A stretch of 64,000 nucleotides of DNA from an uncultured Planctomycetaceae bacterium (GTDB lineage Bacteria > Planctomycetota > Planctomycetia > Planctomycetales > Planctomycetaceae). Under the pieces are notes generated by a model. That model made no database searches and was not told where the DNA came from. It was given only the letters and a program-made list of their open reading frames with translations. Position 1 is the stretch's first letter. Every line of letters begins with the position of its first letter. Shown here piece after piece: positions 432 through 64,000 of the stretch. The translations under genes and the position numbers were made by a program. The stretch covers positions 288,001-352,000 of the forward strand of contig CAWFGE010000012.1 of the NCBI GenBank assembly GCA_963815195.1, read 5' to 3'.

Positions 432-3124
432 TCACGCTTCGTCCTCGGCTTCGTGGGAATGTTCGCGGCCCAGGAGCCATTTGCTTTTGTTGAGCATGCG
501 ATACACCGCCACTTTCAAAAAATCGTTGAACAGAAACCACGCCAGCGCATAAGCCCAGATCCAGCCGGCATACTTCCAGCCGATCGGCTCCATGAGCACG
601 CCGTAAACGGCGATCAAGGTTCCCAAAAGCATCGTGCCCACGGTCGCGCCCATCAGGATCGGAGCCGGCCACGGCTTTTGCCAGAAGAAGTTCTCCCCCG
701 CCCGCGCTACATAGAGCGTCGAATGCCCCGCCACGTCGAGCTTGAGGAAAATCAACGTCATGATGATGTCCCGATCCACACCCCGGCGCTCGAAAATGAA
801 AAACAGCAGAAACGACGCCAGGACGCCCGCGATCCCCAGCACCGTGGCCATCGTGAGCACCTCCCGCAGGTTCCAGCGGACCGGGTGCGGTTCGACGCGG
901 GCGCGGTCATACGCAATCGCCATGATCGGCACGTCATTTAACAGCGCCAACATGATAATCATGATCGGCGTGACGGGTCTGAACTGGAACACGACGATGG
1001 CCAGCGTCATGAACAGAATCACGCGGATCGTCTCGGCGATGCGGAAGATGGAATAGGCTTTCATCCGCCCGAAAATCATCCGGGCCTGCTCGAAGGCGTG
1101 AATGATCACCGACAGCCCGGGTTCCAATAAGACGAGATCGGCCGCGGCGCGGGCGGCGTCGGTCGCCCCGGAGACGGCGATCCCGGCGTCGGCTTTTTTG
1201 AGGGCCGGGGCGTCGTTCACGCCGTCGCCCGTCATCGCCACGATGTGGTCGGCCTTCTGCAGGCGGTCCACGATGTCGTACTTGTCTTCGGGAAAGACCT
1301 GGGCAAAGCCTCCGGTCTCCTCGATCAACTCGATGATCTGCGATTCGTGCCGGCGAACGAACACATGGTTCGGATGCAGTTTCTTCAGCCGCTCTTCGAG
1401 CTTCCCGACCACGTCTTCGCCGATGGCACGAATGTCGTCGGGAGTCGCGTCGGGCTTGAGCCGGGCATACAGCGATTCGGCGACGACGTCGGCGATGGCC
1501 AACAGTTCGGTGGGTTTCTCTTCCTTCAAATCCGCATGGTCGCGGATCTCGCCTTCGATTCCCAGAATCTCCGCAATCTGCCGGGCGATGGCGAGGTTGT
1601 CCCCGGTGATCATCTTGATCTCGACGCCCAACTTTTTGCGCGGGAAATCGTCTCGGCGGAATCGTCGCGGGGCGGATCGAAGAACGGCAGGATGCCGACG
1701 AATCGGAACACCGGCTCCTCGGGCTTTTTGAACGCCACGCCCAAGGTGCGGTAGCCTTTTTTGGCGAAGGCTTCAACCTGCTGTTGGGCGGGTTGGCTGG
1801 CGGGGCTGCCGTCGCACATCGCGAGAATTGCCTGCGGAGCCCCTTTGGTGACGATCAAACGCTCTTGATCGCTTTCCACGGTCGCTTCGGTCCGCTTGCG
1901 GACGGGATCGAAGGGCACAAAAGCTTTCCGCCGGTAAGCGTCAAGCCGGCCCTCGCCGCCGCCCGAATGCAGCGACGCGAAAATCGGCGTTTCGAGCGGA
2001 TCGTTGTTTTCCTCCCGGCTGGCGAGCGCGGCATAAAACAGAATGTCCTCCTTCGCGTAGCCGTCGTAAGTCACGGGATCGCCCAGTTGCATCACGTTCT
2101 TGGTCAACGTCCCCGTCTTGTCGCTGCAGAGAATGTCCACGCCCGCGAGTTCCTCGATCGCCACCAACCGGCTGACGATCGCCTGCCGGCGGGCCAATTG
2201 GATCGCGCCCACCGCCATCGTCACCGACAGCACGGCCGGCAAGGCCACGGGGATCGACGCCACCGTGAGCACCAGCGAGAAGCGGAGGATCTCCGTCAGA
2301 TCCTCCTTGCGAAGGATGCCGGTGATCACGATCACCACGACCATCGCCACCGAGATCAGGATCAGATAGTTCCCGACATTCACGATGGCTTTTTGGAAGT
2401 GGCTCCGCTGCTGTTTCCCGGCGCGGGCGACCAAGGCGACCGTGTTCCCGAAAAACGAGTGCAGCCCGGTCGCGGTCACGACCGCGAGCATCTCGCCCAT
2501 CTTGACGACCGAGTTTCCGTAAGCGATGTCTCCCATGGATTTATCGACGGGCATCGATTCTCCGGTCAGCGCGGACTGGTCGGCTTGGAGATACGCCCCC
2601 TCGATCAGCTTCACATCCGCCGGCACCACGTTCCCGATGCGAAGCTTGACGATGTCGCCCGGCACGAGTTCGCGGGCATCGATCTCTTGCCAACGTCCGT
2701 TCCGCATCGCCAGCGCCGTCTGCGCGAGTTTTTCCTTGAGCAGTTTGAGGGCTTTGAGGGCCGAGGACTCCTGGCGGAAATCGACGATCACATTCACCAA
2801 AAGCAAAACCACAATGATCGAAAAGTCTTCCCACTTCTGCACCGCGGCCGAGAGAATCGCCGCGGCTTCGATCATCCAGGGGATCGGCCCCCAGAACCGC
2901 TTGCCGATGCGCTTTAGCAGCGATTCCTCTTTTTCGGGAAGTTCATTCCGGCCGTATGCCTCTTGCCGGCGTGCGACTTCTTCGTCGGAAAGCCCGCCCG
3001 TCGGGTCGGTTTTTAGTTGGTTTAGCGTGTCTTCAACCGAAACCGATTCGAACGTTTCGGTTTTTTGGGGCGGTTTCGCTTGGCGGGGGGAACGCGGAGC
3101 GTCCACTGCAGATCGTTGGGACAT
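432..3124 (-). CDS. Plasma-membrane proton-efflux P-type ATPase (P3A), split by one frameshift near 1635
   Basis: TGES, IPVALP, DKTGTLT and DPPR in ORF 1610-3172; MITGD and TGDGVNDAPALKKA in ORF 432-1631; AAGGAG RBS before ATG 3124; one extra base in the T5 run at 1633-1637 joins the two frames. Confidence 0.92.
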
Positions 3125-3220
3125 CGATTCTCCTTGGTCTCTGTCTCGGTTCCCGCTTTGATCCGACAACAAGACGGCGCACGCTCAGCCGCGCGAGCGC
3201 AACGCCGCACCCGTGGCTTA

Positions 3221-10333: not shown

Positions 10334-10996
10334 ATGAATCAAGGCATCGATGCGAAAAGGAATCCTGAGGTTGATGACTATTTAAGGAAAGCCAAAAAGT
10401 GGCAGGAGGAATTGCGGACATTGAGAACGATCGTTCTCGACGGTCAGCTGACCGAAGAATTCAAGTGGCGGGCGCCTTGTTACACGTTTCAGGGCCGGAA
10501 TGTCGTCATACTCGGCGGATTCAAAGATTTCTGTGCGATGACGTTTTTCAAAGGCGCCTTGTTAACAGACCCCGATGGCGTACTCGCCAAACCGGGGGAG
10601 CATACGCAGGCGGCACGCTTGATCCGGTTCACCAGCGTTCCGGAAATCGTGGAGAGGGAAGCCATCTTGAAAGCGTATCTCAATGAAGCCATTGAAGTGG
10701 AAAAAGCCGGCTTGAAAGTGGATTTCAAAGAGAAAACAGAGCTGGTTTATCCTGAAGAGCTTCAACACAAACTGGATGAAATCCCCGCCTTGAGAACCGC
10801 GTTTGAAGCATTGACGCCGGGACGGCAAAGGGCGTACCTACTTCATTTTTCCGCACCCAAACAATCGAAGACCCGCGAGTCGAGGATTGAGAAATGCATG
10901 GAGCGAATTTTCGCTGGCAAGGGATTGAACGATTGCATTTGTGGTCACTCTCAAAAGCTGCCCCACTGCGACGGCTCGCATAAGCTCATTCGATGA
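10334..10996 (+). CDS. YdeI/DUF1801 family protein with C-terminal CDGSH [2Fe-2S] motif
   Basis: EEFKWRAPCY, FFKGALL.DP and FEALTPGRQRAY...KQSKTR..RI; ends CICGHSQKLPHCDGSH. Confidence 0.88.
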   Translation: MNQGIDAKRNPEVDDYLRKAKKWQEELRTLRTIVLDGQLTEEFKWRAPCYTFQGRNVVILGGFKDFCAMTFFKGALLTDPDGVLAKPGEHTQAARLIRFTSVPEIVEREAILKAYLNEAIEVEKAGLKVDFKEKTELVYPEELQHKLDEIPALRTAFEALTPGRQRAYLLHFSAPKQSKTRESRIEKCMERIFAGKGLNDCICGHSQKLPHCDGSHKLIR

Positions 10997-12298
10997 ACGT
11001 CAACGGTCCCCACGGCGGACTCGACCTGTACGCCACCCAGGCTGCGATGCCGCCGCCGAGGGCGGCCAGAATCACCAGCGAAACGACGACGCCCACGCTG
11101 CGGTGCCAGCCGGCGAAGACCACGGAGTAAACGGCTTTTAAGAGGTTGTTCGAGGAGGCGGCGATCAGGATGGCGATGGCCGTCGCGGTCTGGTCCAGCC
11201 CGGCGACGCCGCCTTGGGCCACGCTCAATACGAACGGGTCGATGTCCGTGACGCCAACGATCGCGGCCAGCGCAAACACCCCGGCGTGGCCGAAGCGGGA
11301 TTTCACCCAGGAAGAGCCGAGGGAGATTAAAACGAACAGAACCGCGAAGAGCAAAGCCGCCGGGATTTCGAGCGGGTTTTTCGCTTCGGGCGCGGGAACC
11401 TCCTGAACCGTGTCCGTTCGCCCGCCGCGCCACAGGCAAATTGCCGCGAGGATTCCCCCCGCGGCCGCCAACGCCGCCAAAGGCCCCGCCAGGTCCATCG
11501 CCAGCGGAAGATTGAAAATCGCGACGACCACGCCCAGCCGCAGGTACATCATCGCCGTGGACAGGACGATGCCGGACTGGAACTCGTGCCGGTTCCGCGG
11601 ATCCTGCTTGAGCCGTGCGCCAAAACAACGGTGGTCGCGGTCGAGGAATAGAGTCCGCCCAGGACGGACGTGAAGAACAAACTGCCTTGGGGCGATAACA
11701 GTTTCTGGAGCAGATAGCTTCCATAAGACAAGGACGACACCACGATCACGGCCAGCCACACCTGGAACGGCGTGATCGGCGTGAGCGCCAAAACGGGTTT
11801 GTCCGGCAGCAAGGGCAGCACGACGCCGATCAACACGAGAAACTGCGCCAGGGTCAGAATCTCTTTGCCGGGAATGCGCTCCGCCAGGGCATGCAGGCGG
11901 TCGCGGGCGCGGAGCAAAAGCACGGCGGTGACGCTCAGGCCGAACGCCAGCCAAGGCGGTTGCGTCAATGCGACCGGCCCCAACAGAAACGCGACCAGAT
12001 TGCACAGCGGGACCATAATCCCGTCGGCGTATTCGCTGGTTTCCTCGCGGCGAGAGACTTCGGACTGATAATACGGATAAAGCCAGACGCCCAGCACGAT
12101 CAAACCCACGCAGAACGCGGCCGCGAACTTCGGTTCCAGGGCGTAAAGGATCGCCCCGCTCAGCGAAAGCAGCGGGAACGTGCGAATGCCTCCCGGCCGG
12201 CTGCGGGCTGACTTCCAGTAGAAGCCTTCAAACGACAGCCCGAAGAAGAACGACAGCCCCAGCAGAACCCCCAGCTTTTCCGCGGTCAAGAGTTCCAT
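10986..12298 (-). CDS. MgtC/SapB N-terminal + DUF4010 membrane protein (frameshift near 11617)
   Basis: GGIRTFPLL, VLPLLP and LGGLYSSTATT in ORF 11549-12298; NPLEI..ALLF, GVTDIDPF and AASSNNLLK in ORF 10986-12005. Confidence 0.85.
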
Positions 12299-13199: not shown

Positions 13200-13691
13200 T
13201 CAGCTTGAGCCGACTTTCGCCAGCCGGCTTTCCGCGGCGGCTTGGACGGCTTTGACGATTTTATCGTACCCCGTGCAGCGGCAGAGGTTGTTGGCGAGGT
13301 AGAAGCGGATTTCGTCTTCGGTCGGCCGAGGGTTGGAAGAGAGCAAGGCTTCGGTCTGCACGATGAAGCCCGGCGTGCAGATGCCGCATTGCAGAGCCGC
13401 CCCTTCGAGGAACGCTTGCTGGACTTCATCCAGATGGCTGCCGCAGGCGATGCCTTCGATCGTGCGGAGTTCCGCGCCCTCGGCTTCCACGCCGAGCACG
13501 AGGCAACTGACGACGGGGCGGCCGTTCATGAGCACGGTGCAGGCGCCGCAGTTGCCGTTGGAGCAGCCTTCCTTGGTGCCGGTGAGGTCCAGGACATCCC
13601 GCAGGACTTCGAGCAGGGTTTGCCGGGGTTCGCAGAGGAACTCGACGGCATCGCCGTTGATCGTCATTGAGACAACGCGTTTTTTTGACAT
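13200..13691 (-). CDS. Xanthine dehydrogenase / CO dehydrogenase family [2Fe-2S] small subunit (CoxS-like)
   Basis: GTKEGCSNGNCGACTV, QCGICTPG and NLCRCTGY. Confidence 0.93.
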   Translation of the reverse strand: MSKKRVVSMTINGDAVEFLCEPRQTLLEVLRDVLDLTGTKEGCSNGNCGACTVLMNGRPVVSCLVLGVEAEGAELRTIEGIACGSHLDEVQQAFLEGAALQCGICTPGFIVQTEALLSSNPRPTEDEIRFYLANNLCRCTGYDKIVKAVQAAAESRLAKVGSS

Positions 13692-13794
13692 GATTTGTTC
13701 CGAAGTAGTATTCGTGAAATCGTGGTATTTTCTGGAAAGGGAATCATCATTGGGCTGACGCGGGCACCGACCGTAGGTTGGTCTGCTCGCCGGC

Positions 13795-14691
13795 TCATGT
13801 GCCGGGGTGATAGTCGATTTGTTCGCCCTTTGCGCGGGCGATGGCGGCTTTGAGGACGCGCTCGGTGAGGACGCCGGTGATGTGCTTGCGGTATTCCACC
13901 GTGCCCCGCATGTCGGTGATGGGGTGGATGATCTCGCGGGCGGCCTGGGCGGCTTTGGCGAGGAGTTCCTCGGTGATCGGCTGCCCAGCCAACAGGCTCC
14001 CGGCTTTTTCCGCCAACAGCGGCGTGGGGGCGACGGCTCCCAAAGCGATGCGGGCGGAGATAATCTTTTCGCCGGCTTCGTCCAGTTCCACGGCCGCCGC
14101 GACGCCGACGACTGCGATGTCCATTTCGTTCCGGGGAATAAACCGCCGGTAGTGCGAACCGCTCTCGGGCTTCGGCGCGGGAAGGCGGATTTCGAGCAGG
14201 ATCTCGCCGGGCTTTAACACGTTGGTGCCCGGCCCGGTGCAGAAGGCTTCGGCGGGGACTTCGCGGGTGCCGGTTTGGTTGGCGATCACACATGTCGCCC
14301 CGAGCGCGATCAGGCTGGGCGTGCTGTCGGCGGCAGGGCCGGAGTTGCACAAGTTCCCGCCCACGCTGGCCCGGCTCTGGATTTGGATCCCGCCGATGAT
14401 CCGGCAACTGTCCGCGAGGGCCGCGTAGTTCTTGGCGATCTCGGGATTCTCATAAACCCGATAGCAAGGCACCGCAGCGCCGAGCCGAAGCCCGTCCGCT
14501 CCTACGACCAGCCCGTTGAGTTCGGGGATTTTTTTGAGATCGACCAACAGCTTCGGCCGCAGCCGGCCCATGCGGACGTGGTCGATCAAATCGGTGCCGC
14601 CGGCGAGCGGGCGGGCCTGGCCGTTTTGCTCGGCGAACAGGGCGAGGGCTTCCTCGAGCGTGGCTGGTGCTTGAAAATCAAATTCGTGCAT
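13795..14691 (-). CDS. Xanthine dehydrogenase / CO dehydrogenase family FAD-binding medium subunit (CoxM-like)
   Basis: LAGGTDL, QIQSRASVGGNLCN..PAAD and PITDMRGTVEYR. Confidence 0.92.
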   Translation of the reverse strand: MHEFDFQAPATLEEALALFAEQNGQARPLAGGTDLIDHVRMGRLRPKLLVDLKKIPELNGLVVGADGLRLGAAVPCYRVYENPEIAKNYAALADSCRIIGGIQIQSRASVGGNLCNSGPAADSTPSLIALGATCVIANQTGTREVPAEAFCTGPGTNVLKPGEILLEIRLPAPKPESGSHYRRFIPRNEMDIAVVGVAAAVELDEAGEKIISARIALGAVAPTPLLAEKAGSLLAGQPITEELLAKAAQAAREIIHPITDMRGTVEYRKHITGVLTERVLKAAIARAKGEQIDYHPGT

Positions 14692-14807: not shown

Positions 14808-17800
14808 TCAAGGCTCGACCACGGGCTGAAGTCCGCCGTAGAGCGGCAGGTGGCGGTATTCGATTTCCAGCATGAGGAGTTTGAGGGCGGTCGTATAAAT
14901 CCGGCCGCCGCGTTTTTCCCAGTCGTCCTTGGGAGCCCAAGTGCCGCCGGCCGGGCCGGATTGGTCTTGAGATTCCACGAGCAGTTTGTTGAGGTCTTTG
15001 TTCCAGGCCGCCCAGCGCTCGCCCTGCAGATGATAGAGCACCTGCGTCGCGTAATACCAATAGTACGAGGTGTGCCTTTGGTCTTTTTGCGGGAGGTATT
15101 TCATGAGGTATTCGCTCCCTGCGTCCAAGCGCGGGCTGGACGGCGGCTCGGCGAGGAACTCGAGGCACAACAGGCCCTCGGCGGTCATGGCGGGCGTGGG
15201 GCTGCGGCCGGTGTAGCCGAACACGCCGCCCTGGGGCTTGTTGCCTTCGACCGACGCCAGCCAGCGGCGGACGTTTTGATAGGTCGCCGCCGGCACGTCG
15301 ATGCCCGCCATCTCCGCGCTTTTGAGGGCCATCACCTGCCAGCCGACGACGGAAGTGTCCGCCGCTTCGTTGGGGTTATACCGCCAGCCGCCGGTCGGCC
15401 CGTGCTGGGCTTTCACGATAAAACCGACGGCCTTTTTCGCCGCGTCGCCCAAGCGGGGTTCCCGCGTCATCGCGAAGGCTTCGCAGACGGCGATGGTGGC
15501 GATGCCGTGGCTGTACATGACCTGGTTGTCGCCCTCCCCTTGGATCTTGCCGGCGTCATCCTGGTTTTTCAAAAGCCAATCCAACCCCTTCGTCACGACC
15601 GGGCCGTATTCTTTGGAATCCGGCGTGTGACCGGAGGCCAAGAACGGCAAGAGCGCGAGCCCCGTCGCCGCGGTGTTGGAATGTTCGCTGCCGGCCCCGG
15701 AACAGCGGCCGCCGTGCTTTTCGCAGTTCTTGTGGAACTCGTGCAGGCTCCAACGGCCGTCTTCGTCTTGATGCCTGGCCAACCAGAGCAAGCCGCGCTT
15801 CACGGCGGCTTCTTCCGCGGGATGATTCCCCAGCACCGACGCCAATTCCCGCCGCGTATCGGGATTGCGGAGAGCCAGCATCGAAGACAGCTCCACCGCC
15901 TCCTGGACTTCCACCGGCTGAGACAACTCCGCGAGCGCCGCGGGCGGCTTGAGTGCCCGCCTTTGCAGCTTCGGCTCGAATCGCTTGGGCAAGTCCTGAA
16001 GCGCCTGCGCTTTCGCCAATGCGCGGGGAGAGTTTTCAGGCGAAGCGAGTTTCGGCGGGGCGGCGATGGACTCGGCGAGGGTTCGCTTTTCCGGTGCGCC
16101 CGGGTTTTTGGACGGGGCCGTGTTGCGCGTTTCTTCCGAAGTCTTCGGTTCAATCGGCGAGAGTTCGGGCGACTGATCCAACTCCGCGACCTGGGCGAGT
16201 TGATCGGGCACGGCCGGCTTTTTGAGCGATTCGGGATTTCGTTGGAGAAGCGCACGCGAGAGTTCGGGCATGGGATGATTCAACTCGGCCACCGTCGCGG
16301 GCTTCGAGAGCAACGGCTGGTTCGGTAAAGCCGGATCGGAGTTCTGAATCTCAACCTGCGCGGACACCATCGCCGGCCGGCGGTCGCGGTCTGGGGACTC
16401 GGCGGGAACCAACTGTTCCTCGGCGGGTTTTTGCACCGGCTTCAGATCGGTTTGATCGAGATTCGCGATTTGCTGAAGCTCCGGAGTGCGCGGCTGCCGG
16501 GCGAACTTCGGCAGGACAATCGGGCGATGCGGACGCGACGGGCTGCGGGGAATCCGGCAGCGGCTCGAGCCGCACCGATTGCGGTTTCGCTTCCATCTCT
16601 TGAGGATTCGCCTTCACCGCGGGAACGACCGGTTCCACCGAAGCGGTCTGCGTTTTCTCCAAGGCGGGATTGGTTTGCACCGGGGTCGGCTCGACGGGTT
16701 GGGCTTTCACGGCGGGAAGTTCCGGGAGCGACTCGGCAACGGGCGCCGCCATCGCGACTTGCGGCCGGCTACGGGAGAGCGGCTTGGAAACCTGCGTCGG
16801 CGAGGTCGCGCGAGGCACCACCGCGACCACCGTCTGCGGCACATGGGCCGGCACGTTTTCCAAGAGCGGCAGCGTGTTGTCTTCCGGCAGGAAGGACGGC
16901 GGCTGTTGGCTGCGAGCCGCCTGGGTCGTGTGCGGTTCGCTCGGCCAATCGGGCTGTTCGACGGGCTCCACCGGCGGCAAGTCCGCGACTTTGCTGTAGA
17001 GGTTCTCCCGCGTCCGCTGGGATTGCAACTCCTCTTCATCGACCACCCGGCTCGCGGGCAACGGCTCTTGGAACTCCTTCACAATCGCATCCACCAGTCC
17101 CGGCAGCTTCCACAAAAAGAGGAGCATCACAAAGACCGCATTGATAATCAGACTCGCCGCGAGGAACCGGGCGGGCCAGACCTTCTGCGCCAGCCGCTGC
17201 CGATTCCGCAGCATCAGCCACACCGCGACGATCAACAACATCCCGCAAACGATCGCCGCCCACAACCAAGGATTGGCAAGCGCCTTGAGCCTTGACGTAT
17301 CCCGCGAGGAGTGCTCGTAAACCTCGGCGGCCGTGCTGACATAGAGCCGATCGTTCCCGTCGCGGTCGCTGGCGAACACGAGGCGAAACCCTTCGGGCGA
17401 CAGCGACGGTTCGGTCTCGTGGGCCGGGGTGTTGATGCTCGGTCCCAGGTTTTCCGCCTCGCCGATGATGTCCCCATCCAAAAGCCGCACGCGGTACAGG
17501 TCGAGGTTCGCGTCTTCGCCGGAGCGAGCCGGGCGGTCGGAGGCAAAATACAAAAACGCCCCGTCCGGGGAAACGTGCGGAGCCCCTTCGTTGCTGCCGG
17601 GCAAGTTCAACTCGGCGACCGATTTCACGTCGGCCCATCCCGCTTGATGGTTGTCTCGCTCCGCGCGGTAGAGATCATAAGTCCGCTCGCCCGTTTCCGC
17701 CCGCAGGGTGCCGGCCCATTCGCGGTTTTCCGCAGGCGCGTTCTGCGATGCTTTGCGGGCCATGCGGTCGGTGCGGTTGGAGGCGAAGTATAAAACCTTT

Positions 17801-18576
17801 CCCGATGGACCCGGACAGGGATCGTATTCGTTGGCGGGCGTGTTGATTTGGGGGCCGAGGTTTTTGGGCTTCGACCATTTGCCTTTTTGCCGGGTGGCGA
17901 CGTAGAGATCATAACCGCCTCGCCCGCCTGCGCGGTTTGAGAAAAAGTACAACTCCCGCCCGTCCCGCGAGAGGATCGGCCCCATGTCGTCCGCGTCACT
18001 GTTCAGTTCCGCCACCGGCCGCGGCGTTTCCCATCGGCCCTCGCGAAAATAAGAGCGCACGATCTCCGCCGGCTTGCCGCTTTGCCGGCGGGAGAAATAC
18101 AGCGTCGCCCCGCCGTCGGTGAGCGAAGGGGAAATCGATTCGGGCGAGGATTGATCTTCGGGTTCGGGAACGGGCAGAGATTCCGCCGATTCCCAGACAA
18201 TGAGCCGCCGGGGTGGAGCGGTTTCGCGATCCCATTCGCCGCCGCCGTCGTAGCGGACGACTTCCTCCACGCGCGTCGGCCAGAACCAGGCGATCAACCA
18301 AGCCACTGCGAGGGCGGTCAACAGTCCCGCGGCCTTCTTCACAATCGGCAAGTCCCGCCAGCCTTGACGGAGCCGGCTGATGCTGTTTCCCATCGATTCC
18401 TCCGTTGATCCCGGCGATCGCTCAGCGGTCCATTTTACAAGAGGTTTTAATCGACCCAAGCCGCCGGCTTGCCGGCGGTCCGACGCCAGAGGCGTCGGCT
18501 TGGGTTTGAGGTCCGACGCCAGGGGCGTCGGCTTGGGTTTAAGAACCGTTTCTGATTCGTGATATGGACTCGTCAC
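14808..18576 (-). CDS. Multidomain membrane protein: PD40/TolB-like beta-propeller, TonB/TolA-like TM and Pro-rich linker, C-terminal prenyltransferase/squalene-cyclase-like alpha/alpha barrel (frameshift near 16523)
   Basis: PD40 repeats (P.LS.DG..LYF.S.R, KNLGPQINT..NE..P); three TM segments; P/E/A-rich region; QW-like repeats (QDEDGRW, QHGPTGGWRY, YYWYYATQ, GGRIYTTA); GTGA overlap with the exbD stop. Confidence 0.8.
18461..18542. repeat. REP-like palindromes, including a 33-bp tandem duplication
   Basis: CCGCCGGC-tt-GCCGGCGG then two copies of GGTCCGACGCCAGrGGCGTCGGCTTGGGTTTrA (18477-18509, 18510-18542), each a CCGACGCC/GGCGTCGG hairpin. Confidence 0.8.
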
Positions 18577-18995
18577 GAAGCCCCGCGCCGCTGCAGGACG
18601 GCGATTTCCGATTCCATGCCGACTTTGTTACAGAGGCCCGTGGCTTTGACGGCGTGCTTCAAAGCGCTTTCCTCGTCGCCGTAAATCAGCGCAGCCTGGC
18701 TGGGGTTGTTGCGGTTGGCGGCGGCGAGGACGGCTGCGAGTTCCGCTTCCGTGTATTCCTGGTCCTCGATCACAAACCGCCCGTCCGAGGTGATGTTGAT
18801 CACGAGCTTCGGCGTCATCGAAGCCGGCTGCGCGAGGGCCGCCGTCGGCAGCTTGATCTCGTTCAGCCGCCGTTCTTCGGTGTCTTCCTGATAGCGCGTC
18901 GCGACGAGGAAGAAGATCAACAGCAAAAACACGACATCGATTACGGGCGTCAAATTCGGCCCCTCATAATCATGCGCTTCCGGCGGCAATCGCAT
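18573..18995 (-). CDS. exbD: ExbD/TolR family biopolymer transport protein
   Basis: NLTPVIDVVFLLLIFFLV with the conserved TM Asp; GGTGGAG RBS. Confidence 0.92.
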   Translation of the reverse strand: MRLPPEAHDYEGPNLTPVIDVVFLLLIFFLVATRYQEDTEERRLNEIKLPTAALAQPASMTPKLVINITSDGRFVIEDQEYTEAELAAVLAAANRNNPSQAALIYGDEESALKHAVKATGLCNKVGMESEIAVLQRRGAS

Positions 18996-19085
18996 CGAAC
19001 TCCACCTTATTGATTTAAGAATCGAAACCGTGGATTGTTTGAATGATTGGAACACTCATCGGGACTCATCTTCGCGAATCATACC

Positions 19086-19117
19086 CCTCGTTCCCAAGCC
19101 CCAGCTTGGGAACGAGG
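19086..19117. repeat. REP-like perfect hairpin
   Basis: CCTCGTTCCCAAGC-ccca-GCTTGGGAACGAGG, 14-bp perfect stem between exbB and exbD. Confidence 0.85.
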
Positions 19118-19205
19118 TGGAGAGATGGAAATTCCGCTGGCTCCATTCGTGTAATTCGTGGTTGGCCTCTTCTCGTTTTCGTGTCTTTCGTGGTGCCTCC
19201 CGAAA

Positions 19206-20063
19206 TCATTTCGCCGTCGCCAAAAGGCGTTCCTGGTTCGCGGCGTCTTTTTCGCTGGCGTGGAACTCGCGGCCGGTTTGTTCGAGCGCCCCGAAGCTGG
19301 GCAGGACCTCGGCCAGATGCAGGTCGATCTCGCGGAAGGCCCGGTCGATCTTGGCGTTGAAGTAGGCCGCGCACAACAGGGAAGGAATCGCAATCGCCAA
19401 CCCCGCCGCCGTCGTGAGGAGCGCGAGATAAATCCCCTGAGCGAGGGTTTCGCCTTTGCCGCCCAAGCCGCCGGAACTCGCGGTGTAAAACGCTCCGATC
19501 ATCCCCACGACCGTTCCCAACAGGCCGATCAAGGGGGCGATGCTGCCGATGACGCTCAGCGGGCGAACCCGGCTGCGCAGCTCGGCGATCTCGCGGGCGG
19601 CGGCGTCTTCCAGCGACTTTTCCACCTCCGGCAAAGGCCGGCCCGCCCGCAACAGCCCCGCGCTCAGAATGTTCGTGGGCGGACCATCGAACTTGCGCAC
19701 AGGCTCCGCAGGGCGTTCTCGTCGGCTTCGCGGCCCACGGCGAGTTTTTGCAGTTCCTCAACGAACCCGGGCGGAATCAGCAAATGCCGGCGCGTCGCCG
19801 CGGCGCGTTCGACCGCGATCATCGTGGCATACACGGAAAACGCGCCGAGCACCAACATAAAGCCCCAGCCCGTCGGGCCGCTGTCGGCGATCATCGTCAT
19901 GATCGATGGCGTGCCTTCTTCGCTCGGCCGGCGCGTTTTGACTGTCTGCCGCCGGGTCCGCTGAAAACGCAGGACGGGACAACACCGAAAACGCGATGAA
20001 CATCCCCAACACAACGGCCAAGGAAATCGATGGGGAAAGAATCAATCGGGCGGAGTGCTTCAC
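19206..20063 (-). CDS. exbB: MotA/TolQ/ExbB proton channel family protein (two frameshifts, near 19922 and 19703)
   Basis: APLIGLLGTVVGMI and GIYLALLTTAAGLAIAIP; signal-like N-terminus and first TM lie in the two other frames. Confidence 0.88.
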
Positions 20064-20094
20064 GGAATTTGCCTCCCTCGAGAATTGCGAATGT

Positions 20095-23000
20095 TTATGG
20101 GACGGTCTTGAGCAGTTTCTGGGCATCTTTGACCAAGGCGTGCTGCGGGAATTTTTCGATCACGAACTCCAGTTCTTCGCGGGCTTTCGCCGGTTTTTTG
20201 AGCTGGACAAAGCAGCGGGCCGCCTGGTAATGCCCTTGGACTTTCCATTCTTCGTAAGGGTAACCCAGGGCCGCTTCGAGGTAGTGCTCCCAGGCGGAGT
20301 CGAACTTCTGCTGGGCGAAATCGCATTCGCCGAGCATAAACCGCGCGCGGGCCGCGGTCTCGGTCTCTGTGTCTTTGAGGACCTGCTGGTAATGGCTCCG
20401 CGCGGGATCGAACTTCTTCTGATTCTGTAGCGCAAACGCCAAGCCGTAGCGGGCTTCCACGTGCTGCGGGAACTTCGAGAAGCGATCGACCACCGCCCCA
20501 AAATATTTCTCGGCATCGGCCCACTGTTTCAGGCGCGTCGCGCACTGCCCCGCGCGGTAATGGGCGCGGGGTTGATATTCCTCGGACGGACTCTTCGCCA
20601 GCTCGGCATACAGCGGAAACGCTTGCTCGATCTTGTCCTGGATGTACAGCGACTCGGCCTGAAGCGACACCGCATCGTCGCGATAAGTGCTCTTGGGAAA
20701 GTCGGCCAGCAGCTTTTTCAGCTCGGCGACCGCCTCCGCGTAGGCTTTGCGGTCGTACTGCACCCGGGCGATTTTGTAAAGCAAAAGCTCTTTGAGTTCC
20801 GGCTCGCCGGCTTTGGCAAGACCCCCTTGAAAACTTTTGAGCGCTTCATCGAGTTTGGAGTTGGCCGTGTGATATTCCCCCACGCGGAACAACGCTTCCG
20901 CCGCGAGCGGGCTTTCGGGAAACGTCGCGGCCAGGTGCTCGAAGGTCTCCGCGGCTTTGTCGGCTTGCTTGAGGTTCTGATAGGCAAACGCCAGTTCGTA
21001 ATGGGCCTGGTCCGCTTTCGGCGACTGCGGGGATTCCTTGAGCAGAGTTTCCAAAGCCGTCGCGGCCTTATGGTAATCTTTCTGGGCCGACTGCGAGAGA
21101 GCCAGCGTGAGCCGGGCCTCGGCTTTGCATTCGGCATCGTCCGGATTGGCGGCAAGGTAGGCACCGAGGTCGGCGATCGCTTGCGGATACTGCTTGAGCT
21201 GATAATAACTCGCCCCGCGGAGATACCGCCCGTTGGCCGCCACCTCGGACTTCGGCCACTTGGAGAGAAGCTGCGAAAGCTCCTTGACGGCTGCGTTCTG
21301 GTCGGGCTTTTGAAAAGCACAGGCCCCCAAGCGGTATTGGGCGAGCGGGGCCAACTCATGCTCGGGAAACTTGGCAACGACTTGCCGATAATAGTTCGCG
21401 GCCTCGTCCCATTTTTTTTCCTCCATCTTCAGCCGGCCCAACCGCGAATACGCGTGCGGCAAGAGTTCGCTTTTCGGATAGCGGGAAATCAACTGATTGA
21501 GATCGCCCATCGCCGCCTGCGGGTTTTTGTCGGCTTCCCGTTCCGCCGCGAGCGCGAGCAGCACCTCGTCGCCCCGCGGCCAGTCGGGGTCGGCTTGCCG
21601 GGACCGCTCGAACGCTTGGATCGCCTGTTTGTGCTGCTCTTTCGCCGCGTACGATCGGCCGATGAGAAAATGGGCCTCCGCCAGAAGCGGTTTGTCGGAG
21701 ATTTGTTTCACGCATTCATTCAGCCAAACGGTGGCCGGATCGTGTTGCCCCGAGGCGAACAGGCAATGCCCGACCCGCACCCGCGCGATCGGCGTTTGTG
21801 GATGATCGGACTTTTTCGCGATCAGTTCGCGGTAGAGCTTTTCCGCTTTGGCATAATCCGGTTTCTCTTGCAGGAGTTCGCATTCCCCCGCAATAAAGAC
21901 GACCTCGCCCCACAGCGGATGTTTTTCGGCATCGGTTTTCGCCAGGAAAGCCGCGGCGTGTTGTCGGCCCGCGGGATAATCCGCAACTTCCAGTGCCGCC
22001 CGCGCCGCCCGGTAAAGCGCCTCCGCCGCCAGGGGATGTTGTTGATGGCCGGCCGCGAAATCGGCGAAGCGTTTGAGCGATGCCTGCGCTTCGTTCGGCT
22101 GATCGGCCAAAGCTTCGAGACGGGCGAACTCCAGCTGCGGTTTCATCTCGCCCGCGGCTGGGGACGCGATGGCAGCGTCCAGAACTTGCACCGCTTCGGG
22201 AGACCGCTTCTGCGACCGCAAGGTCTGCCCTAACCAATACGCCGCCTCCGCGGCGTGCGGGGATTCCTTTCGCTTCGCCAAAAGCTCTTTCAGCGAGCGC
22301 TCGGCTTCGGGAAACTTGCCCGCGCGGTAGCGGCTTTTGCCGGCGGCGATCAGGCTGTCCGCGAGATACGTGCTCTCGGGGAATTTGCTGGGCAGCGATT
22401 CAAGCACCTGGGCGGCTTCGGGGAATTTCTCCTGCTGAAACAGCGCCTGCCCGCGCTGAAGTTCCGCAAAGTCCGCGAGCGGAAATTCCTTCACCGCAGC
22501 CGCCTCGCGGAAATAGCGCTCCGCATCGGCGAATTGCGCCCGGCTCATTTTGACCATCCCCAATCGCAACTTCGCCTCCGGGACCTGCGGGTGTTTTCCG
22601 AATCGATTGAGGAACGTCTGAAACGATTTCTCGGCCTCGGCGTGCTGTTCGAGTTCATGCTGCGTCGTGCCGGCGGCCAGATAAATCTCGGGCAACAGCG
22701 GCGAATCTTTGTGGGCATTGATGACCTGGAGATAGGTCTTCACCGCGGCGGGTTTGTCGCCGGCTTGATACTGGCACTCGGCCTGATACCAGCCCGCCTG
22801 CGCCGCCTGGGTGCTTTTGGGATGCCGGCTTTGCATATCGGCGAAGCTCTTGGCGGCTTTCTGATAATCGGCCGGTTTCGCCGAAGCCGCGGCCTGTTGG
22901 TAATAGACCAACCCGAGATTGAACTCCGCCGCGTCCCGGTGGGCGAAGTCTTTGTGCCGGGCGAGCAACTGCTCGAACGCCTCGGCCGCGTGGGAAAAAT

Positions 23001-23265
23001 CCTTGTGCTGATAATAACACAGGCCCAAGTGATATTGGGCCAAGGGAAACCGCTCATCTTTTGGATGGTTTTTGAGGAACTCTTTCCAGCGCTCGATCGC
23101 CTGCGGGTAATGGCCTTTTTTCTCGAAACCCAGGGCCACCGCATAATCCCGCGTGGCGGCGTTTTCGGTTTGGGCGTTCAAAACAGCGGGGAAGAAAGTC
23201 AGCGACGCACCGGCGAGGAACACCGCCAGCACCAACACAATTCGGCCGCGAGTGGGCATGGACAT
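20095..23265 (-). CDS. Large secreted TPR-repeat protein (CpoB/YbgF-, BamD-like repeats)
   Basis: Signal peptide (…FFPAVLNA-Q) followed by many A.Y.LG...F....P.S TPR units over about 1050 aa. Confidence 0.9.
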   Translation of the reverse strand: MSMPTRGRIVLVLAVFLAGASLTFFPAVLNAQTENAATRDYAVALGFEKKGHYPQAIERWKEFLKNHPKDERFPLAQYHLGLCYYQHKDFSHAAEAFEQLLARHKDFAHRDAAEFNLGLVYYQQAAASAKPADYQKAAKSFADMQSRHPKSTQAAQAGWYQAECQYQAGDKPAAVKTYLQVINAHKDSPLLPEIYLAAGTTQHELEQHAEAEKSFQTFLNRFGKHPQVPEAKLRLGMVKMSRAQFADAERYFREAAAVKEFPLADFAELQRGQALFQQEKFPEAAQVLESLPSKFPESTYLADSLIAAGKSRYRAGKFPEAERSLKELLAKRKESPHAAEAAYWLGQTLRSQKRSPEAVQVLDAAIASPAAGEMKPQLEFARLEALADQPNEAQASLKRFADFAAGHQQHPLAAEALYRAARAALEVADYPAGRQHAAAFLAKTDAEKHPLWGEVVFIAGECELLQEKPDYAKAEKLYRELIAKKSDHPQTPIARVRVGHCLFASGQHDPATVWLNECVKQISDKPLLAEAHFLIGRSYAAKEQHKQAIQAFERSRQADPDWPRGDEVLLALAAEREADKNPQAAMGDLNQLISRYPKSELLPHAYSRLGRLKMEEKKWDEAANYYRQVVAKFPEHELAPLAQYRLGACAFQKPDQNAAVKELSQLLSKWPKSEVAANGRYLRGASYYQLKQYPQAIADLGAYLAANPDDAECKAEARLTLALSQSAQKDYHKAATALETLLKESPQSPKADQAHYELAFAYQNLKQADKAAETFEHLAATFPESPLAAEALFRVGEYHTANSKLDEALKSFQGGLAKAGEPELKELLLYKIARVQYDRKAYAEAVAELKKLLADFPKSTYRDDAVSLQAESLYIQDKIEQAFPLYAELAKSPSEEYQPRAHYRAGQCATRLKQWADAEKYFGAVVDRFSKFPQHVEARYGLAFALQNQKKFDPARSHYQQVLKDTETETAARARFMLGECDFAQQKFDSAWEHYLEAALGYPYEEWKVQGHYQAARCFVQLKKPAKAREELEFVIEKFPQHALVKDAQKLLKTVP

Positions 23266-27612: not shown

Positions 27613-27641
27613 GGCTTGATGCTTTGAACGACTCGGATGGA

Positions 27642-27650
27642 TGGTATAAT
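27642..27650 (+). promoter_or_regulatory. Extended -10 promoter, probably giving a leaderless mRNA
   Basis: TGGTATAAT followed 6 nt later by ATG 27657; no SD sequence. Confidence 0.7.
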
Positions 27651-27656
27651 ACCGTT

Positions 27657-28016
27657 ATGATTCCCAAGCTCTCTGCCGAACAACGTCAGGCCCTGGATGA
27701 AGGCGAGGGTCGGCCGATCATTGTGATCGATGCCGACCGCGGGCAGCGGTTTTTGCTGATACCGGAAACCCACGATCAGGCCCGCGGGCTCGTGGAGAAT
27801 TCCACTGGGGACGAAACTTGGACCGAAGAAAAGGAAACGCGACGCCGCGAGCTGATTGATAAAGACATCGCGGGCACGCTGAAGGCCGACGAACGAACGG
27901 AACTCGCCGTCCTGGATTGGCAAGGGAACACCCATTACGACAAGATCGCCCCCCGCCCGTTGGAGGGGATTCGCCAACTCCACCAGCAGCTTTTGGACAA
28001 ACGTGATCAGCCGTGA
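27657..28016 (+). CDS. Small hypothetical protein, antitoxin-like partner of the HNH gene
   Basis: 119 aa; overlaps the downstream HNH gene; LSAEQRQAL...P..VID N-terminus. Confidence 0.65.
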   Translation: MIPKLSAEQRQALDEGEGRPIIVIDADRGQRFLLIPETHDQARGLVENSTGDETWTEEKETRRRELIDKDIAGTLKADERTELAVLDWQGNTHYDKIAPRPLEGIRQLHQQLLDKRDQP

Positions 28017-28614
28017 ATCCGCTCCGTTCACTTATCCTCGTCAAACCATCGCCAGGCGGCATGGTCCCGAAGGTTACGTCGATTACAAGTCGTATCGCCC
28101 TTGGCTCCGCGATGAGTTTAGTTTTCGCTGCGCCTATTGTTTGATGCGCGAACGGTGGGGCCGCGTGACGGGGCAATTTGATTTGGATCATTTTGTGCCA
28201 CAAGTTCAATCGCCGGATGAGCCGCCGGTTTATGAGAATCTCGTTTATGCTTGCCACTCCTGCAATTTGCGAAAGCGAGATTTGAATCTGCCTGAAGTTT
28301 TCATCACCGCCGAAGATGTCCGGGTCTATGAGAATGGTCAGATGGTTGGATTGACTCCCGAAGCGGATCGGATCATTCGATTGCTTTACTTGAATACTCC
28401 GCAAACGATCGAATGGCGACGGCTTTGGATTCGGTCGGTTCAATTGGCGGCGGAGTTCGATCAGGATCTGTATGACCAATTGATGGGGTATCCGGACGAT
28501 CTTCCAAACCTCGCGCGGCTTAATCCTCCTGGAAATCATAAGCCCGCAGGGATCGCGGTGAGCCACTTTGCTCGTCAAAAGCGAGGGGAATTGCCTGCAA
28601 CCTACCTCACTTGA
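28003..28614 (+). CDS. HNH endonuclease
   Basis: CAYC...DLDHFVP...NLVYACHSCNLRK. Confidence 0.88.
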   Translation: MISRESAPFTYPRQTIARRHGPEGYVDYKSYRPWLRDEFSFRCAYCLMRERWGRVTGQFDLDHFVPQVQSPDEPPVYENLVYACHSCNLRKRDLNLPEVFITAEDVRVYENGQMVGLTPEADRIIRLLYLNTPQTIEWRRLWIRSVQLAAEFDQDLYDQLMGYPDDLPNLARLNPPGNHKPAGIAVSHFARQKRGELPATYLT

Positions 28615-50400: not shown

Positions 50401-50649
50401 TGGTCAATCCGAAGTCCGAATCTCGAAATCCGAAACAAATTCCAAACCGAAACGGCCGAAACCCGGTGAATCGTAGCCGTTGGTTTGGCGAACGGGTTTG
50501 TTTTCGTCCATGTTAAGTTCCCGAACCGTCCCGGTAAAGCACGGCCGAAGGATGGGAACTTCGGGGGAATTATGCTGCGGAGCCCTGGGGGTTTGATTAC
50601 AATCAGTGAGTCTGCAAAATCGCTGCAATTTGCACGGAACCGAGCCGAC

Positions 50650-61700: not shown

Positions 61701-64000
61701 TACCGACGACCTTTCGACGGACGGTCCGGGAACCTACACCGAAAACGTCACAATCAACAAGGACGTGACGATTCAGGCGACCGAACTCGACCCAACCGCC
61801 GTCATCGTGGACGGCAGCGCCGCCGGTTCCGTGATCACCATTACCGCGGGCAACACGGTCACGCTCGATTCGCTGACCATCCAAAACGGGTCCGCGACGA
61901 ATGGCGGCGGCATCAACAACGCCGGCACGCTGACGCTCACCAACAGCATCGTTCAAAACAACACCGCGACGACCAACGGCGGGGGGATCTTCAATGCCTC
62001 CACGGGCATCGCCACGGTGACCGGCGCGTCGGTGATCTCCGGCAACACGGCCAGCGGCAGCTTGGTGCCGGAGGGCGGCGGCGGAATCTTTAACGAGGGC
62101 GGCGGGATGATCACGGTCGATGGCTCCTCCATCGTCCAAAACAACACCGCCACCGCCAGCCGAGGCGGTGGGATCTTCAACAGCCTGGACGGCACGTTGA
62201 TTGTTCAAGGCGGAGCGCAGATCAGCGGCAATGCCGCGGGCACGGTCCCCGGGACCCAACGGTTCGGCGGGGGAATCTACAACCGCGGGACAGCGACGAT
62301 TCAAGGCGGAACCCAGATCACGGGCAATACCGCCACCGATCAGGGCGGCGGCATCTACAGCGCCTCGATGGGCACGACGACGGTTCAAGGCGGAGCGCAG
62401 ATCACGGGCAATAGCGCCAACAATGATGGCGGCGGGATCTTCAACAACGCCGGCGGGACACTGACAATCCAGGACGGAACCCAGATCAGCGGCAATACCG
62501 CCAACGATGACGGGGGCGGGGTTTACAATCTCGGCGATCTCACCATCGATAGCGCCACCATCGGTGGAACGGGCGTGGGCAACACCGCCGGCAGCGACGG
62601 TGGCGGGATTTACTTCGATGATGGGACGGTGACCATCACCAACGCGACCATCGACGGCAACACCGCGAGCGGTAGCGCCTCAAACAACGGCGGCGGCGGG
62701 ATTTTTGTCGATGATGGGGAGACCTTATCCCTGAATAGCACCGTGAGCATTACGAACAACGTCGCCAACGGCGCGCTCGGCTCGGGCGGCGGGATCTTCG
62801 TCGATACGGGAGCCGCGCTGAGCTTGACCGGCACGACGGTCACCGGCAACACCGCCAAACGCGCCGGCGGCGGCATCGAAGACAACTCCGGCAACACCAC
62901 GTTTGTCACATTGACCGACGCGACGTTGAACAACAACGTCGCCCTGGGCACGGGATCGGCCCCCGGCAACGGCGGCGGCCTGCACATCACGGGCGCCGGC
63001 CAGGTGACGATCAGCGGGGGGACCATCAATAATAACACCGCCGCCGAGGAAGGCGGCGGCCTGTGGAACTCCGGCACGGGCGATGGTGGCCATTCAGAAA
63101 GCGGCGTAGGTGGCACGCTCATCCAAGGCAACGTGGCCAACGGCGACCTCACCGAGCAGGGCGGCGGCGGGGTGTTCAACGACGGCGGCACGATCGATCT
63201 CGTGGGGGCGGCGATCAATGCCAATATCTCCACAGCCACGGCCACCGGCAACGGCGGCGGCGGGATCTTTAACCGCGGTACCGTGAACCTCATTGGAACG
63301 AACGTCGCCGGTAATCAGGCCGCGAACGGCTCTGCGAGCGGCGGCGGGATCCTGAATTCCATCGGGGCGACGCTGACGGTGAGCGGCGGCAGCATCACCG
63401 GCAACACCGCCAACCGCGCGGGTGGCGGCATCGAAGACAATTCCGGCCCCGGCCTCGGTGTGACGCTCATCGATGTCTCCTTGGACAACAACGTCGCCCA
63501 AGGCGCCCCGGCAACGGCGGCGGCCTGCATGTCACCGGGGCAGGCGATGTCTCCATCACGGGAGGCACGGTCAGCGGCAACAGCGCGGCCCTCGAAGGCG
63601 GCGGCCTGTGGAACGGCACCGGCACCATGACCATCACCGGCACGACCTTCATCGGAAACACCGCCAGCGGCAATGCGGCCGACGACGGCGGCGGCGCGAT
63701 CTTCAACAACGGCGGCACCCTGAACATTACCGACGCCATCTTCTCCACCAACGTGGCGGATGGCGCGCTGGGCAGCGGCGGCGGGATCTTTAATAACGGC
63801 GGAATTCTGTTGCTCGTCAACTCGCAAGTGGGATCCGGAAGCAGCGGGAATACGGCCACTTTCAATGGCGGCGGGATCTTCAGCACCGGCGGAGACGTGA
63901 CCATTCTCTCGAGCAGCATCAGCTCAAACGTCTCGGGTGCGGCGCTCATCGGCACCGGCGGCGGCGGGATCTTTAACGACAGCGAGATGACGATTGTCGG
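58795..64000 (+). CDS. Giant planctomycete extracellular beta-helix protein (adhesin-like), frameshift near 63507, runs off right edge
   Basis: EVLEDRTLLS motif after a basic N-terminus; dozens of GGGI.N / I.GN.A Pmp-like repeats; GG.VAPG.SPG...YDQL.V.G autotransporter-like segment; one extra C in the C4 run at 63506-63509 restores APGNGGGLHV. Confidence 0.9.

What the first reader, a model, noticed from the sequence alone, without database searches (positions are those of the whole stretch)
14808..23265. Rearranged Ton/Tol-like motor operon whose putative transducer fuses a TolB-like propeller, a TonB-like stalk and a squalene-cyclase-like alpha/alpha barrel
Seen in sequence: four co-oriented genes, TPR (about 1050 aa, signal peptide), exbB, exbD and a roughly 1250-aa protein coupled to exbD by a GTGA overlap. 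ExbD keeps the TM Asp and ExbB keeps the GLLGTV and LLTTA.GL threonines, so the proton motor looks intact. The last protein reads TM, PD40 propeller, TM, TM containing S-L-I-I-N (17154-17140), long Pro/Glu/Ala-rich stalk, QW-repeat barrel with no recognisable DXDD cyclase motif. Established: TonB/TolA couple to ExbBD/TolQR through a TM S-x3-H motif and a periplasm-spanning stalk; Asn is reported to substitute functionally for His20 in E. coli TonB; TolB carries PD40 repeats; CpoB is a TPR protein. Inference: this is a PMF-driven envelope machine where the TonB C-terminal domain is replaced by an alpha/alpha toroid and a TolB-like module is fused in cis. No TonB-dependent receptor or Pal lies nearby, so its target is unknown.
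Basis: partly seen in the sequence, partly recalled or inferred. Interest (0 to 1): 0.85.

Follow-up and report, generated by a model that had tools for sequence, protein, structure and literature searches.

The report
Proton motor with barrel-tipped arm
A planctomycete operon pairs a proton-driven membrane motor with a long arm that docks like the known force carriers TonB and TolA but ends in a squalene-cyclase-like ring of helices, a widespread and untested way of bringing energy to the cell envelope.

Summary
Real and conserved. The operon is TPR-exbB-exbD-fusion. The fusion is one 1194-aa gene split by an assembly indel; a same-genus copy is intact. It reads TM, PD40 propeller, TM, TM with S-x3-N, a 400-aa Pro-rich stalk and an (alpha/alpha)6 barrel (Z 26.5 to squalene-hopene cyclase, no DxD(D)). 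The docking position is His or Asn in 117 of 120 homologues. His/Asn changed at least four times, and Asn is reported to replace TonB His20 fully. Of 72 complete barrel relatives, 64 carry the motif (background 18 of 814). All 12 informative propeller-type loci follow exbB-exbD. The barrel occurs in 178 of 201 phylum genomes; the propeller is optional. Corrections: exbB has two unreported indels, the GTGA coupling is unsupported (start is ATG 18393), and the propeller is closer to PorE than TolB. Best reading (0.78): a proton-driven force transducer with a new head domain, probably for envelope upkeep; its target is not shown. Closest known: vWA-headed PVC transducers (2025). This scan found the same design before in at least eight other genomes. 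New variant of a known kind.

The parts
20095..23265 (-). Exported TPR protein, 1056 aa, tandem CpoB/YbgF-like repeats
   Evidence: TPR_6 E 1e-60; TIGR02795 395 bits over cut-off 90, 15 stretches; N-terminal hydrophobic stretch; upstream in 10 of 10 propeller-type loci with room
19206..20063 (-). exbB/tolQ-like motor gene with N-terminal signal-like extension, split here by two single-base indels (about 19923 and 19695)
   Evidence: PF01618 E 8.5e-28; indels against the intact same-genus copy; one contig lacks base 19924; pore Thr residues invariant in 39 of 39
18573..18995 (-). exbD/tolR-like gene, 140 aa, TM Asp20 at 18938
   Evidence: PF02472 E 2.9e-19; Asp invariant in 38 of 38; coordinates
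18394..18572 (.).
   Evidence: 151-base gap against L021; hairpins 18480-18498 and 18513-18531; one contig lacks base 18489
14808..18393 (-). Putative force transducer, 1194 aa, split by one extra base at 16522
   Evidence: Intact 1195-aa P0001, 81% identical over the query; indel; length
18280..18336 (-). TM1, N-in signal anchor (residues 20-38)
   Evidence: N-terminus K/R 4.3 vs D/E 1.0 in homologues
17320..18141 (-). PD40 beta-propeller (about residues 85-358), periplasmic, anchored at both ends
   Evidence: PF07676; AF2 model; Foldseek TolB E 3e-13; PorE/CHU_0125 models E 2.5e-32 and 7e-37 vs TolB 5e-8, all under cut-off
17209..17265 (-). TM2, followed by a short basic cytoplasmic loop
   Evidence: loop K/R 3.4 vs D/E 0.6
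17110..17166 (-). TM3, TonB/TolA-type docking helix with S-x3-N at 17154-17140
   Evidence: H or N in 117 of 120 homologues; at least 4 His/Asn changes on the tree
15891..17109 (-). About 400-aa Pro/Ala/Glu-rich stalk with a conserved juxtamembrane motif near 17001-16975
   Evidence: Pro 17%; 364-781 aa in 120 homologues, motif columns
14808..15890 (-). (alpha/alpha)6 barrel with QW-type repeats, conserved polar/aromatic face, no cyclase acid motif
   Evidence: AF2 pLDDT 92.9, pTM 0.92; Z 26.5, rmsd 2.9, 283 aligned to 3SQC; Tyr 59 of 59 at the inferred catalytic position

Best explanation
A Ton/Tol-type proton motor with a non-canonical transducer. [quoted passage not shown] TM3 of the fusion docks on the outside of ExbB through its S-x3-H/N face, as TonB and TolA do (inferred from conservation and synteny). 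The motor pulls on the periplasmic stalk, which carries the (alpha/alpha)6 barrel toward the outer envelope. The barrel takes the place of the TonB/TolA C-terminal domain and grips a target in its conserved pocket without cyclase chemistry (inferred). The exported CpoB-like TPR protein is a periplasmic partner, and the membrane-anchored PD40 propeller is an optional accessory. For the job itself I favour Tol-like upkeep or building of the envelope (about 0.5) over Ton-like nutrient uptake (about 0.2) or other surface work such as adhesion or pili (about 0.1). The target is not identified.
For: Motif column pair in 120 homologues: S..H 80, S..N 22, A..H 10, G..N 5, other 3. His/Asn needs at least 4 changes on a 114-row FastTree, and Asn is reported to replace TonB His20 fully (bioRxiv 2022.09.26.509584, passage). 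The motif lies in a TM of 64 of 72 5'-complete barrel proteins found by the barrel alone, against 18 of 814 background proteins with 1-3 TMs. exbB-exbD lies directly upstream in 10 of 10 informative relatives and 12 of 12 propeller-type loci; exbD is adjacent in 13 of 15 long-stalk loci without a propeller and in 15 of 20 loci of a 743-836-aa class. Topology fits. ExbD Asp 38 of 38; ExbB pore Thr 39 of 39, TM3 Pro at least 90%, TM1 Ser 38 of 39. The genome has 11 ExbD and 9 ExbB/MotA matches but no TonB_C, and 0 of 13 family genomes have TonB_C while 121 of 121 have the barrel. The same layout with a vWA head is published (PMC12204202, section 8). Tol-like lean: ExbB and ExbD score better against TolQ and TolR models, the TPR passes the YbgF/CpoB cut-off, and some homologues add M23 or carboxypeptidase-regulatory domains.
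Against: The ExbB TM1 Trp that contacts TonB Ser16/His20 (PMC12215075, passage) is replaced by V, L, A, M or T in the 39 aligned ExbBs (register inferred). No clear D-box: columns 447-452 fit only partly and the model shows low-confidence coil there. The distal Leu/Ser of the SHLS motif is not kept. Short-stalk barrel proteins carry the motif but have no adjacent exbD (0 of 29; exbBD within 6 kb in 5 of 29; 0 of 21), so the motif does not always come with a motor. Stalks of 364-781 aa are far longer than the roughly 100 aa given for vWA transducers. No Pal over cut-off and no TolB_N in the genome. No experiment on this family was found.
Confidence: 0.78

Rival explanations
1. The barrel is an active enzyme (terpene cyclase-like, or acting on glycans or lipids) held in the periplasm on a stalk; the motor only positions or regulates it.
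For: The closest folds are all enzymes: squalene-hopene cyclase Z 26.5, monodomain cyclases Z 26, epimerases and GH76 Z 21-23. The barrel is far more conserved than a passive domain needs, with Asp, Trp, Tyr, Arg at 113-120 of 120.
Against: No DxDD or DxD at the in-register position: Tyr in 59 of 59, DxD nearby in 1 of 59. Even MstE needs a DxD (PMC12324236, passage). All cyclase models stay far under cut-off. A periplasmic position on a 400-aa stalk does not suit a membrane-lipid cyclase (inference).
Confidence: 0.12
2. The fusion is a static envelope scaffold or adhesin. It sits beside the motor genes and may bind ExbB but carries no force; the motor serves another partner.
For: ExbB lacks the contact Trp; no clear D-box; short-stalk paralogues lack motor genes nearby; the genome also has a vWA-headed transducer.
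Against: His-or-Asn selection with repeated exchange; strict adjacency to exbD; no other transducer candidate in this operon.
Confidence: 0.07
3. The operon is decaying (three frameshifts in 3.5 kb), or the fusion is an assembly artefact.
For: Indels at 19923, 19695 and 16522; no contig covers 16522 or 19695 well enough to correct them.
Against: Intact same-genus copies of both genes; that genome has its own indels in the TPR gene, and a third is riddled with them. Unrelated genes in the window are split the same way. One contig corrects 19924. About 117 of 120 homologues are single chains.
Confidence: 0.03

Closest known systems
vWA-headed motor-driven force transducers of PVC and other bacteria (PMC12204202, Mol Biol Evol 2025; section 8 read)
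   Same: TM helix with the SHLS-type His, Pro-rich linker, globular head unrelated to TonB_C; found in PVC after a TPR gene and tolQ/tolR-like genes; function unknown. This genome holds one (C10:352928-354043, VWA_3).
   Different: The head is an (alpha/alpha)6 barrel, not vWA; one exbD, not a pair; stalk about 400 aa against about 100; two extra TM helices and a PD40 propeller in cis. The main text has 0 hits for squalene, prenyl, toroid or cyclase; its supplements were not read.
TonB-ExbB-ExbD
   Same: ExbB/ExbD families, TM Asp and Thr ring, S-x3-H/N helix, Pro-rich stalk.
   Different: No TonB_C domain in the protein or genome; one weak TonB-dependent receptor match on another contig; ExbB Trp38 equivalent missing; D-box unclear.
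Tol-Pal (TolQ-TolR-TolA-TolB-Pal-CpoB)
   Same: Motor subunits score best to TolQ and TolR models, TPR passes the YbgF/CpoB cut-off, PD40 propeller matches TolB by fold.
   Different: No TolA head, TolB_N or Pal; the propeller is membrane-anchored at both ends within the transducer; the TPR is 1056 aa.
PorE / CHU_0125 family (TPR-PD40-carboxypeptidase-regulatory-OmpA lipoproteins of Bacteroidota)
   Same: Best sequence match for the propeller; TPR in the operon; carboxypeptidase-regulatory domain after the barrel in 2 of the homologues scanned (L061, L066).
   Different: Far under the cut-offs; inner-membrane anchored; no OmpA domain.
Class II terpene cyclases (squalene-hopene cyclase beta domain, MstE, 8PAJ/8PAK)
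   Same: Fold, QW-type repeats, in-register alignment over 283 residues at 18% identity.
   Different: No DxDD/DxD, no gamma domain, mounted on a periplasmic stalk.

Membership tests
Ton/Tol-type 5:2 motor (ExbB/TolQ + ExbD/TolR) | MotA_ExbB and ExbD domains with TM Asp and pore Thr residues | tested here: met
   exbB needs two indels corrected
Ton/Tol-type 5:2 motor (ExbB/TolQ + ExbD/TolR) | ExbB TM1 Ser34 and Trp38, TM3 Pro190 contact network | tested here: inconclusive
   Ser 38 of 39, Pro at least 90%, Trp absent; the TM1 register is inferred because phmmer did not cover TM1
TonB/TolA-type force transducer (works like) | N-in TM helix with S-x3-H | tested here: met
   S-x3-N here; H/N in 117 of 120; topology
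TonB/TolA-type force transducer (works like) | Periplasmic Pro-rich linker | tested here: met
TonB/TolA-type force transducer (works like) | D-box / motor-box beta-strand after the TM | tested here: inconclusive
   Partial pattern at columns 447-452; low-confidence coil in the model
TonB/TolA-type force transducer (works like) | Coupling to the motor that depends on the proton-motive force | not testable with these tools
   Needs experiment
TonB / TolA proper | TonB_C-type C-terminal domain | tested here: not met
   No hit in the protein or genome; the head is an alpha/alpha barrel
Tol-Pal system | tolB (with N-terminal domain) and pal in the locus or genome | tested here: not met
   No TolB_N; Pal model 41 bits against cut-off 125; genome 94.6% complete
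vWA-headed transducers (PMC12204202) | vWA C-terminal domain | tested here: not met
vWA-headed transducers (PMC12204202) | Synteny with TPR and tolQ/tolR-like genes | tested here: met
   (one exbD rather than two)
Class II terpene cyclase (SHC/OSC/MstE) | (alpha/alpha)6 beta-domain fold with QW repeats | tested here: met
Class II terpene cyclase (SHC/OSC/MstE) | DxDD or DxD catalytic acid | tested here: not met
   position inferred from the in-register range plus recalled cyclase numbering
Alpha-2-macroglobulin / complement thioester domain | CxEQ thioester motif | tested here: not met
   0 of 59

The most novel reading that the evidence does not exclude
Barrel-headed transducers are the planctomycete replacement for TolA and Tol-Pal. 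A cyclase-derived pocket, pulled by the proton motor across the enlarged periplasm, grips and moves an envelope lipid or lipidated partner, and at least one member is essential: the 827-aa 'squalene cyclase' gene Plim_0306 on the Planctopirus limnophila essential list would be such a transducer rather than an enzyme.
Probability: 0.2. Interest if true: 0.88.

Novelty: new variant of a known kind. Interest (0 to 1): 0.62.

Why it matters
Planctomycetaceae carry many ExbB/ExbD motors but, in the 13 genomes searched, no TonB C-terminal domain, and this genome lacks Tol-Pal. What those motors drive is open. This family supplies a candidate: present in 178 of 201 phylum genomes, often in many copies, and automatically named as prenyltransferase/squalene oxidase repeat proteins. 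An ExbB, an ExbD and a 'squalene cyclase'-class gene are on the essential list of the tractable P. limnophila, so the idea can be tested directly. It would add a second non-TonB head to the force-transducer catalogue and a non-enzymatic use of the terpene-cyclase fold.

Tried and rejected
Complex prediction (3 ExbB + 2 ExbD + TM2-TM3-stalk piece of the same-genus proteins): no answer, score 0.00, controls not folded; a full ExbB pentamer was not modelled. The wide VIA search was not run. Linking Plim_0306 to this family: the DUF1559-next-to-barrel arrangement of G000 contig C8 is not conserved (2 of 21 and 2 of 21 loci); no named P. limnophila protein among the best 120 hits; no paper names these locus tags. 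Left as a lead. GTG-18576 start and translational coupling: rejected. Single-sequence search of solved structures with the barrel: 0 hits; profile hits were off-register repeats and could not fix the catalytic position. Invariance of the D-T-S-V-x-G-W block in alignment A3 is circular because it was a search pattern; one search is the independent count. No RNA holder listed; contigs gave no usable cover at 16522. No sigma-70-like promoter found. The IQ-TREE run did not finish, so only FastTree was used. A vWA gene inside short-stalk motor loci was not found: five intervening genes had no Pfam hit. P. limnophila and V. spinosum essentiality papers do not mention Ton/Tol terms in the main text. 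That Plim_1904 is the true hopene cyclase is recalled; a search did not confirm it.
Full report
1. What is in the sequence. The window lies in an 8.87-Mb, 25-contig genome, 94.6% complete. Named relatives of the barrel are almost all Planctomycetota. Four minus-strand genes follow each other: a 1056-aa TPR protein (23265-20095), exbB (20063-19206), exbD (18995-18573) and a long fusion gene ending at 14808. Pfam gives TPR, MotA_ExbB, ExbD, PD40 and a weak SQHop_cyclase_C hit.

2. Frameshifts are assembly errors. Against the same-genus locus L021 (84.6% identical), the window has one extra base at 16522, one missing at about 19695 and one extra at about 19923. L021 has intact exbB (289 aa) and fusion (1195 aa) but its own break in the TPR gene; a third genome of the genus is broken throughout. 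One short-read contig of depth 2.2 lacks the base at 19924; the other two places are not usefully covered. Two unrelated genes in the window are split in the same way.

3. Start of the fusion. Homologues begin at the Met of ATG 18393, which has a GGAGG upstream. The 180 bases back to exbD hold a duplicated hairpin that L021 lacks, and one contig lacks a base at 18489. The GTGA coupling is therefore unsupported, and the protein is 1194 aa.

4. Anatomy. TM1 (residues 20-38), propeller (about 85-358), TM2 (377-395), a basic loop, TM3 (410-428) with S414-x3-N418, a stalk of about 400 aa with 17% Pro, then the barrel. Mean charge in 120 homologues: N-terminus K/R 4.3 vs D/E 1.0; TM2-TM3 loop 3.4 vs 0.6; after TM3 1.8 vs 3.7. 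This puts propeller, stalk and barrel in the periplasm (inference from the positive-inside rule). The barrel model has pLDDT 92.9 and pTM 0.92. It aligns in register with squalene-hopene cyclase (Z 26.5, rmsd 2.9, 283 residues, 18% identity; Foldseek best 8PAJ, E 1.5e-6). At the position inferred for the catalytic acid there is Tyr in 59 of 59 rows, with DxD nearby in 1 of 59; no thioester motif occurs. The N-terminal model matches TolB by fold (E 3e-13), but by sequence the propeller is closer to CHU_0125/PorE models (E 7e-37, 2.5e-32) than to TolB (5e-8), all under cut-off.

5. The docking helix. A search with the N-terminal half returned 208 proteins; the best 120 (1089-1748 aa) were aligned. 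Barrel columns are filled in about 117-120 of them, so the fusion is a family. The motif columns read S..H 80, S..N 22, A..H 10, G..N 5, W..Y 2, gap 1. On a FastTree of 114 rows (6 dropped: 3 without H/N, 3 too short) His/Asn needs at least 4 changes, all forced by well-supported branches (no bootstrap). Asn is reported to replace TonB His20 fully (bioRxiv 2022.09.26.509584, passage seen). Of 72 with a complete 5' end, 64 have a small-x3-H/N motif in a TM, against 18 of 814 proteins with 1-3 TMs in this genome under the same rule.

6. Synteny. Of 11 relatives' loci, 10 are informative and all have exbB-exbD directly upstream; the 9 with room also have the TPR gene. Among the 72 complete GTDB loci, using my own HMMs: 17 have the propeller (12 of 12 with room follow exbB-exbD; 10 of 10 have the TPR); 16 have a long stalk without propeller (13 of 15 follow exbD); 31 have a short stalk (0 of 29 adjacent to exbD, 5 of 29 with exbBD within 6 kb); 8 show no motif. 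In 20 further family loci of a 743-836-aa class, exbD lies directly upstream in 15. Kin are not independent, but the loci span Planctomycetaceae, Phycisphaerae and one Sumerlaeia record.

7. The motor. ExbD Asp20 is invariant in 38 of 38. ExbB keeps both pore Thr in 39 of 39 and the TM3 Pro in at least 90%, and the TM1 Ser in 38 of 39. Against my reading: the residue four after that Ser is V, L, A, M or T, not the Trp that contacts TonB (PMC12215075, passages seen; register inferred). A D-box as defined in PMC10907165 (passages seen) is only partly matched, and the model shows low-confidence coil there; a different conserved motif follows at about 456-472.

8. Distribution. The barrel occurs at E <= 1e-30 in 178 of 201 phylum genomes, often in many copies, and in 121 of 121 family genomes. 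The propeller orthologue is patchy: strong hits in 12 of 61 relatives, all in the own family. TonB_C was found in 147 of 201 phylum genomes but in 0 of 13 of the own family. This genome has 11 ExbD and 9 ExbB/MotA matches, no TonB_C, one weak receptor match, no TolB_N and no Pal over cut-off. It has three more barrel proteins with S-x3-H helices, one directly after an exbD, and one vWA-headed transducer.

9. Mechanism. Shown: genes, domains, motif conservation, linkage, fold, loss of the cyclase acid. Inferred: docking on ExbB, pulling on the stalk, binding by the barrel pocket. I put 0.78 on a proton-driven transducer. Envelope upkeep is favoured over uptake because the motor scores nearer TolQ/TolR, the TPR passes the YbgF/CpoB cut-off, receptors are nearly absent, and some homologues add M23 peptidase or carboxypeptidase-regulatory domains after the barrel. 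Rivals: tethered enzyme 0.12, static scaffold 0.07, decay or artefact 0.03.

10. A genetic lead. In the P. limnophila TraDIS paper (PMC10632474; passages and searched supplements seen; its main data file was too large to read) the Fig. S3 list of essential genes holds Plim_3131 (COG0811), Plim_3133 (COG0848) and Plim_0306 (COG1657, squalene cyclase), with insertion indices near 0.005-0.006; Plim_1904 has 0.109. The index fractions imply 827 aa for Plim_0306 and 705 aa for Plim_1904. That size fits the exbD-linked barrel class, but I could not establish orthology. It is a lead only.

11. Literature and novelty. The closest description is the vWA-headed transducer class (PMC12204202; section 8 and passages read, supplements not read). 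Eight full-text searches listed no paper on barrel-headed transducers; the library lacks most subscription papers. PMC12324236, PMC12505986 and PMC12283558 were searched by term only. Eight earlier notes of this scan report the same design in other genomes; my reading was formed before that look-up, and they are not counted as support. Verdict: new variant of a known kind, interest 0.62.

Noticed in passing
window 13200-14691 (-): FAD-binding and 2Fe-2S subunits of a molybdo-flavoenzyme directly downstream on the same strand, with no large subunit beside them; not seen in the relatives' loci.
   Followed up: partly
window 10986-12298 (-) and 432-3172 (-): An MgtC/DUF4010 gene and a P-type ATPase gene are each split by a frameshift, which points to assembly indels.
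   Followed up: yes
window 18480-18531: Two copies of a 33-bp hairpin unit in the exbD-fusion spacer; 3 copies genome-wide at up to 2 mismatches.
   Followed up: partly
window 50485-55014 (+) and 58795-63630 (+): Two long ORFs of 1509 and 1611 aa, not examined.
   Followed up: no
window 27624-28614 (+): A small ORF followed by a 203-aa ORF that looks HNH-like by eye; not scanned.
   Followed up: no
L116:2995-7044 (G000:C10:349994-354043): vWA-headed S-x3-H transducer, TPR, exbB, exbD, exbD: the published class in the same genome.
   Followed up: partly
L113:2717-5591 (G000:C2:8713-11590): A lone exbD directly before a two-TM, S-x3-H barrel protein, without exbB; this exbD-barrel pair recurs in 15 of 20 family loci.
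   Followed up: partly
L117:8650-9537 (G000:C15): An ExbD fused behind a zinc-ribbon domain, in a cluster with PQQ-propeller and SBP_bac_5 genes.
   Followed up: no
L056:7285-9207, L060:7560-9041, L079:7569-9074, L097:8272-9279, L081:8094-9311: In exbB-exbD(-exbD)-X-barrel loci, X is a conserved membrane protein with no Pfam hit; L097 also had no NCBIfam hit.
   Followed up: partly
L102, L061, L066, L082: Barrel proteins with extra C-terminal domains: M23 peptidase, carboxypeptidase-regulatory, WD40.
   Followed up: partly
family f34 of the phylum sample: Barrel not found in 0 of 11 matches, while TonB_C is found in 9 of 11.
   Followed up: no
L039: A complete operon on a contig labelled Alcaligenaceae, probably misbinned.
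   Followed up: no
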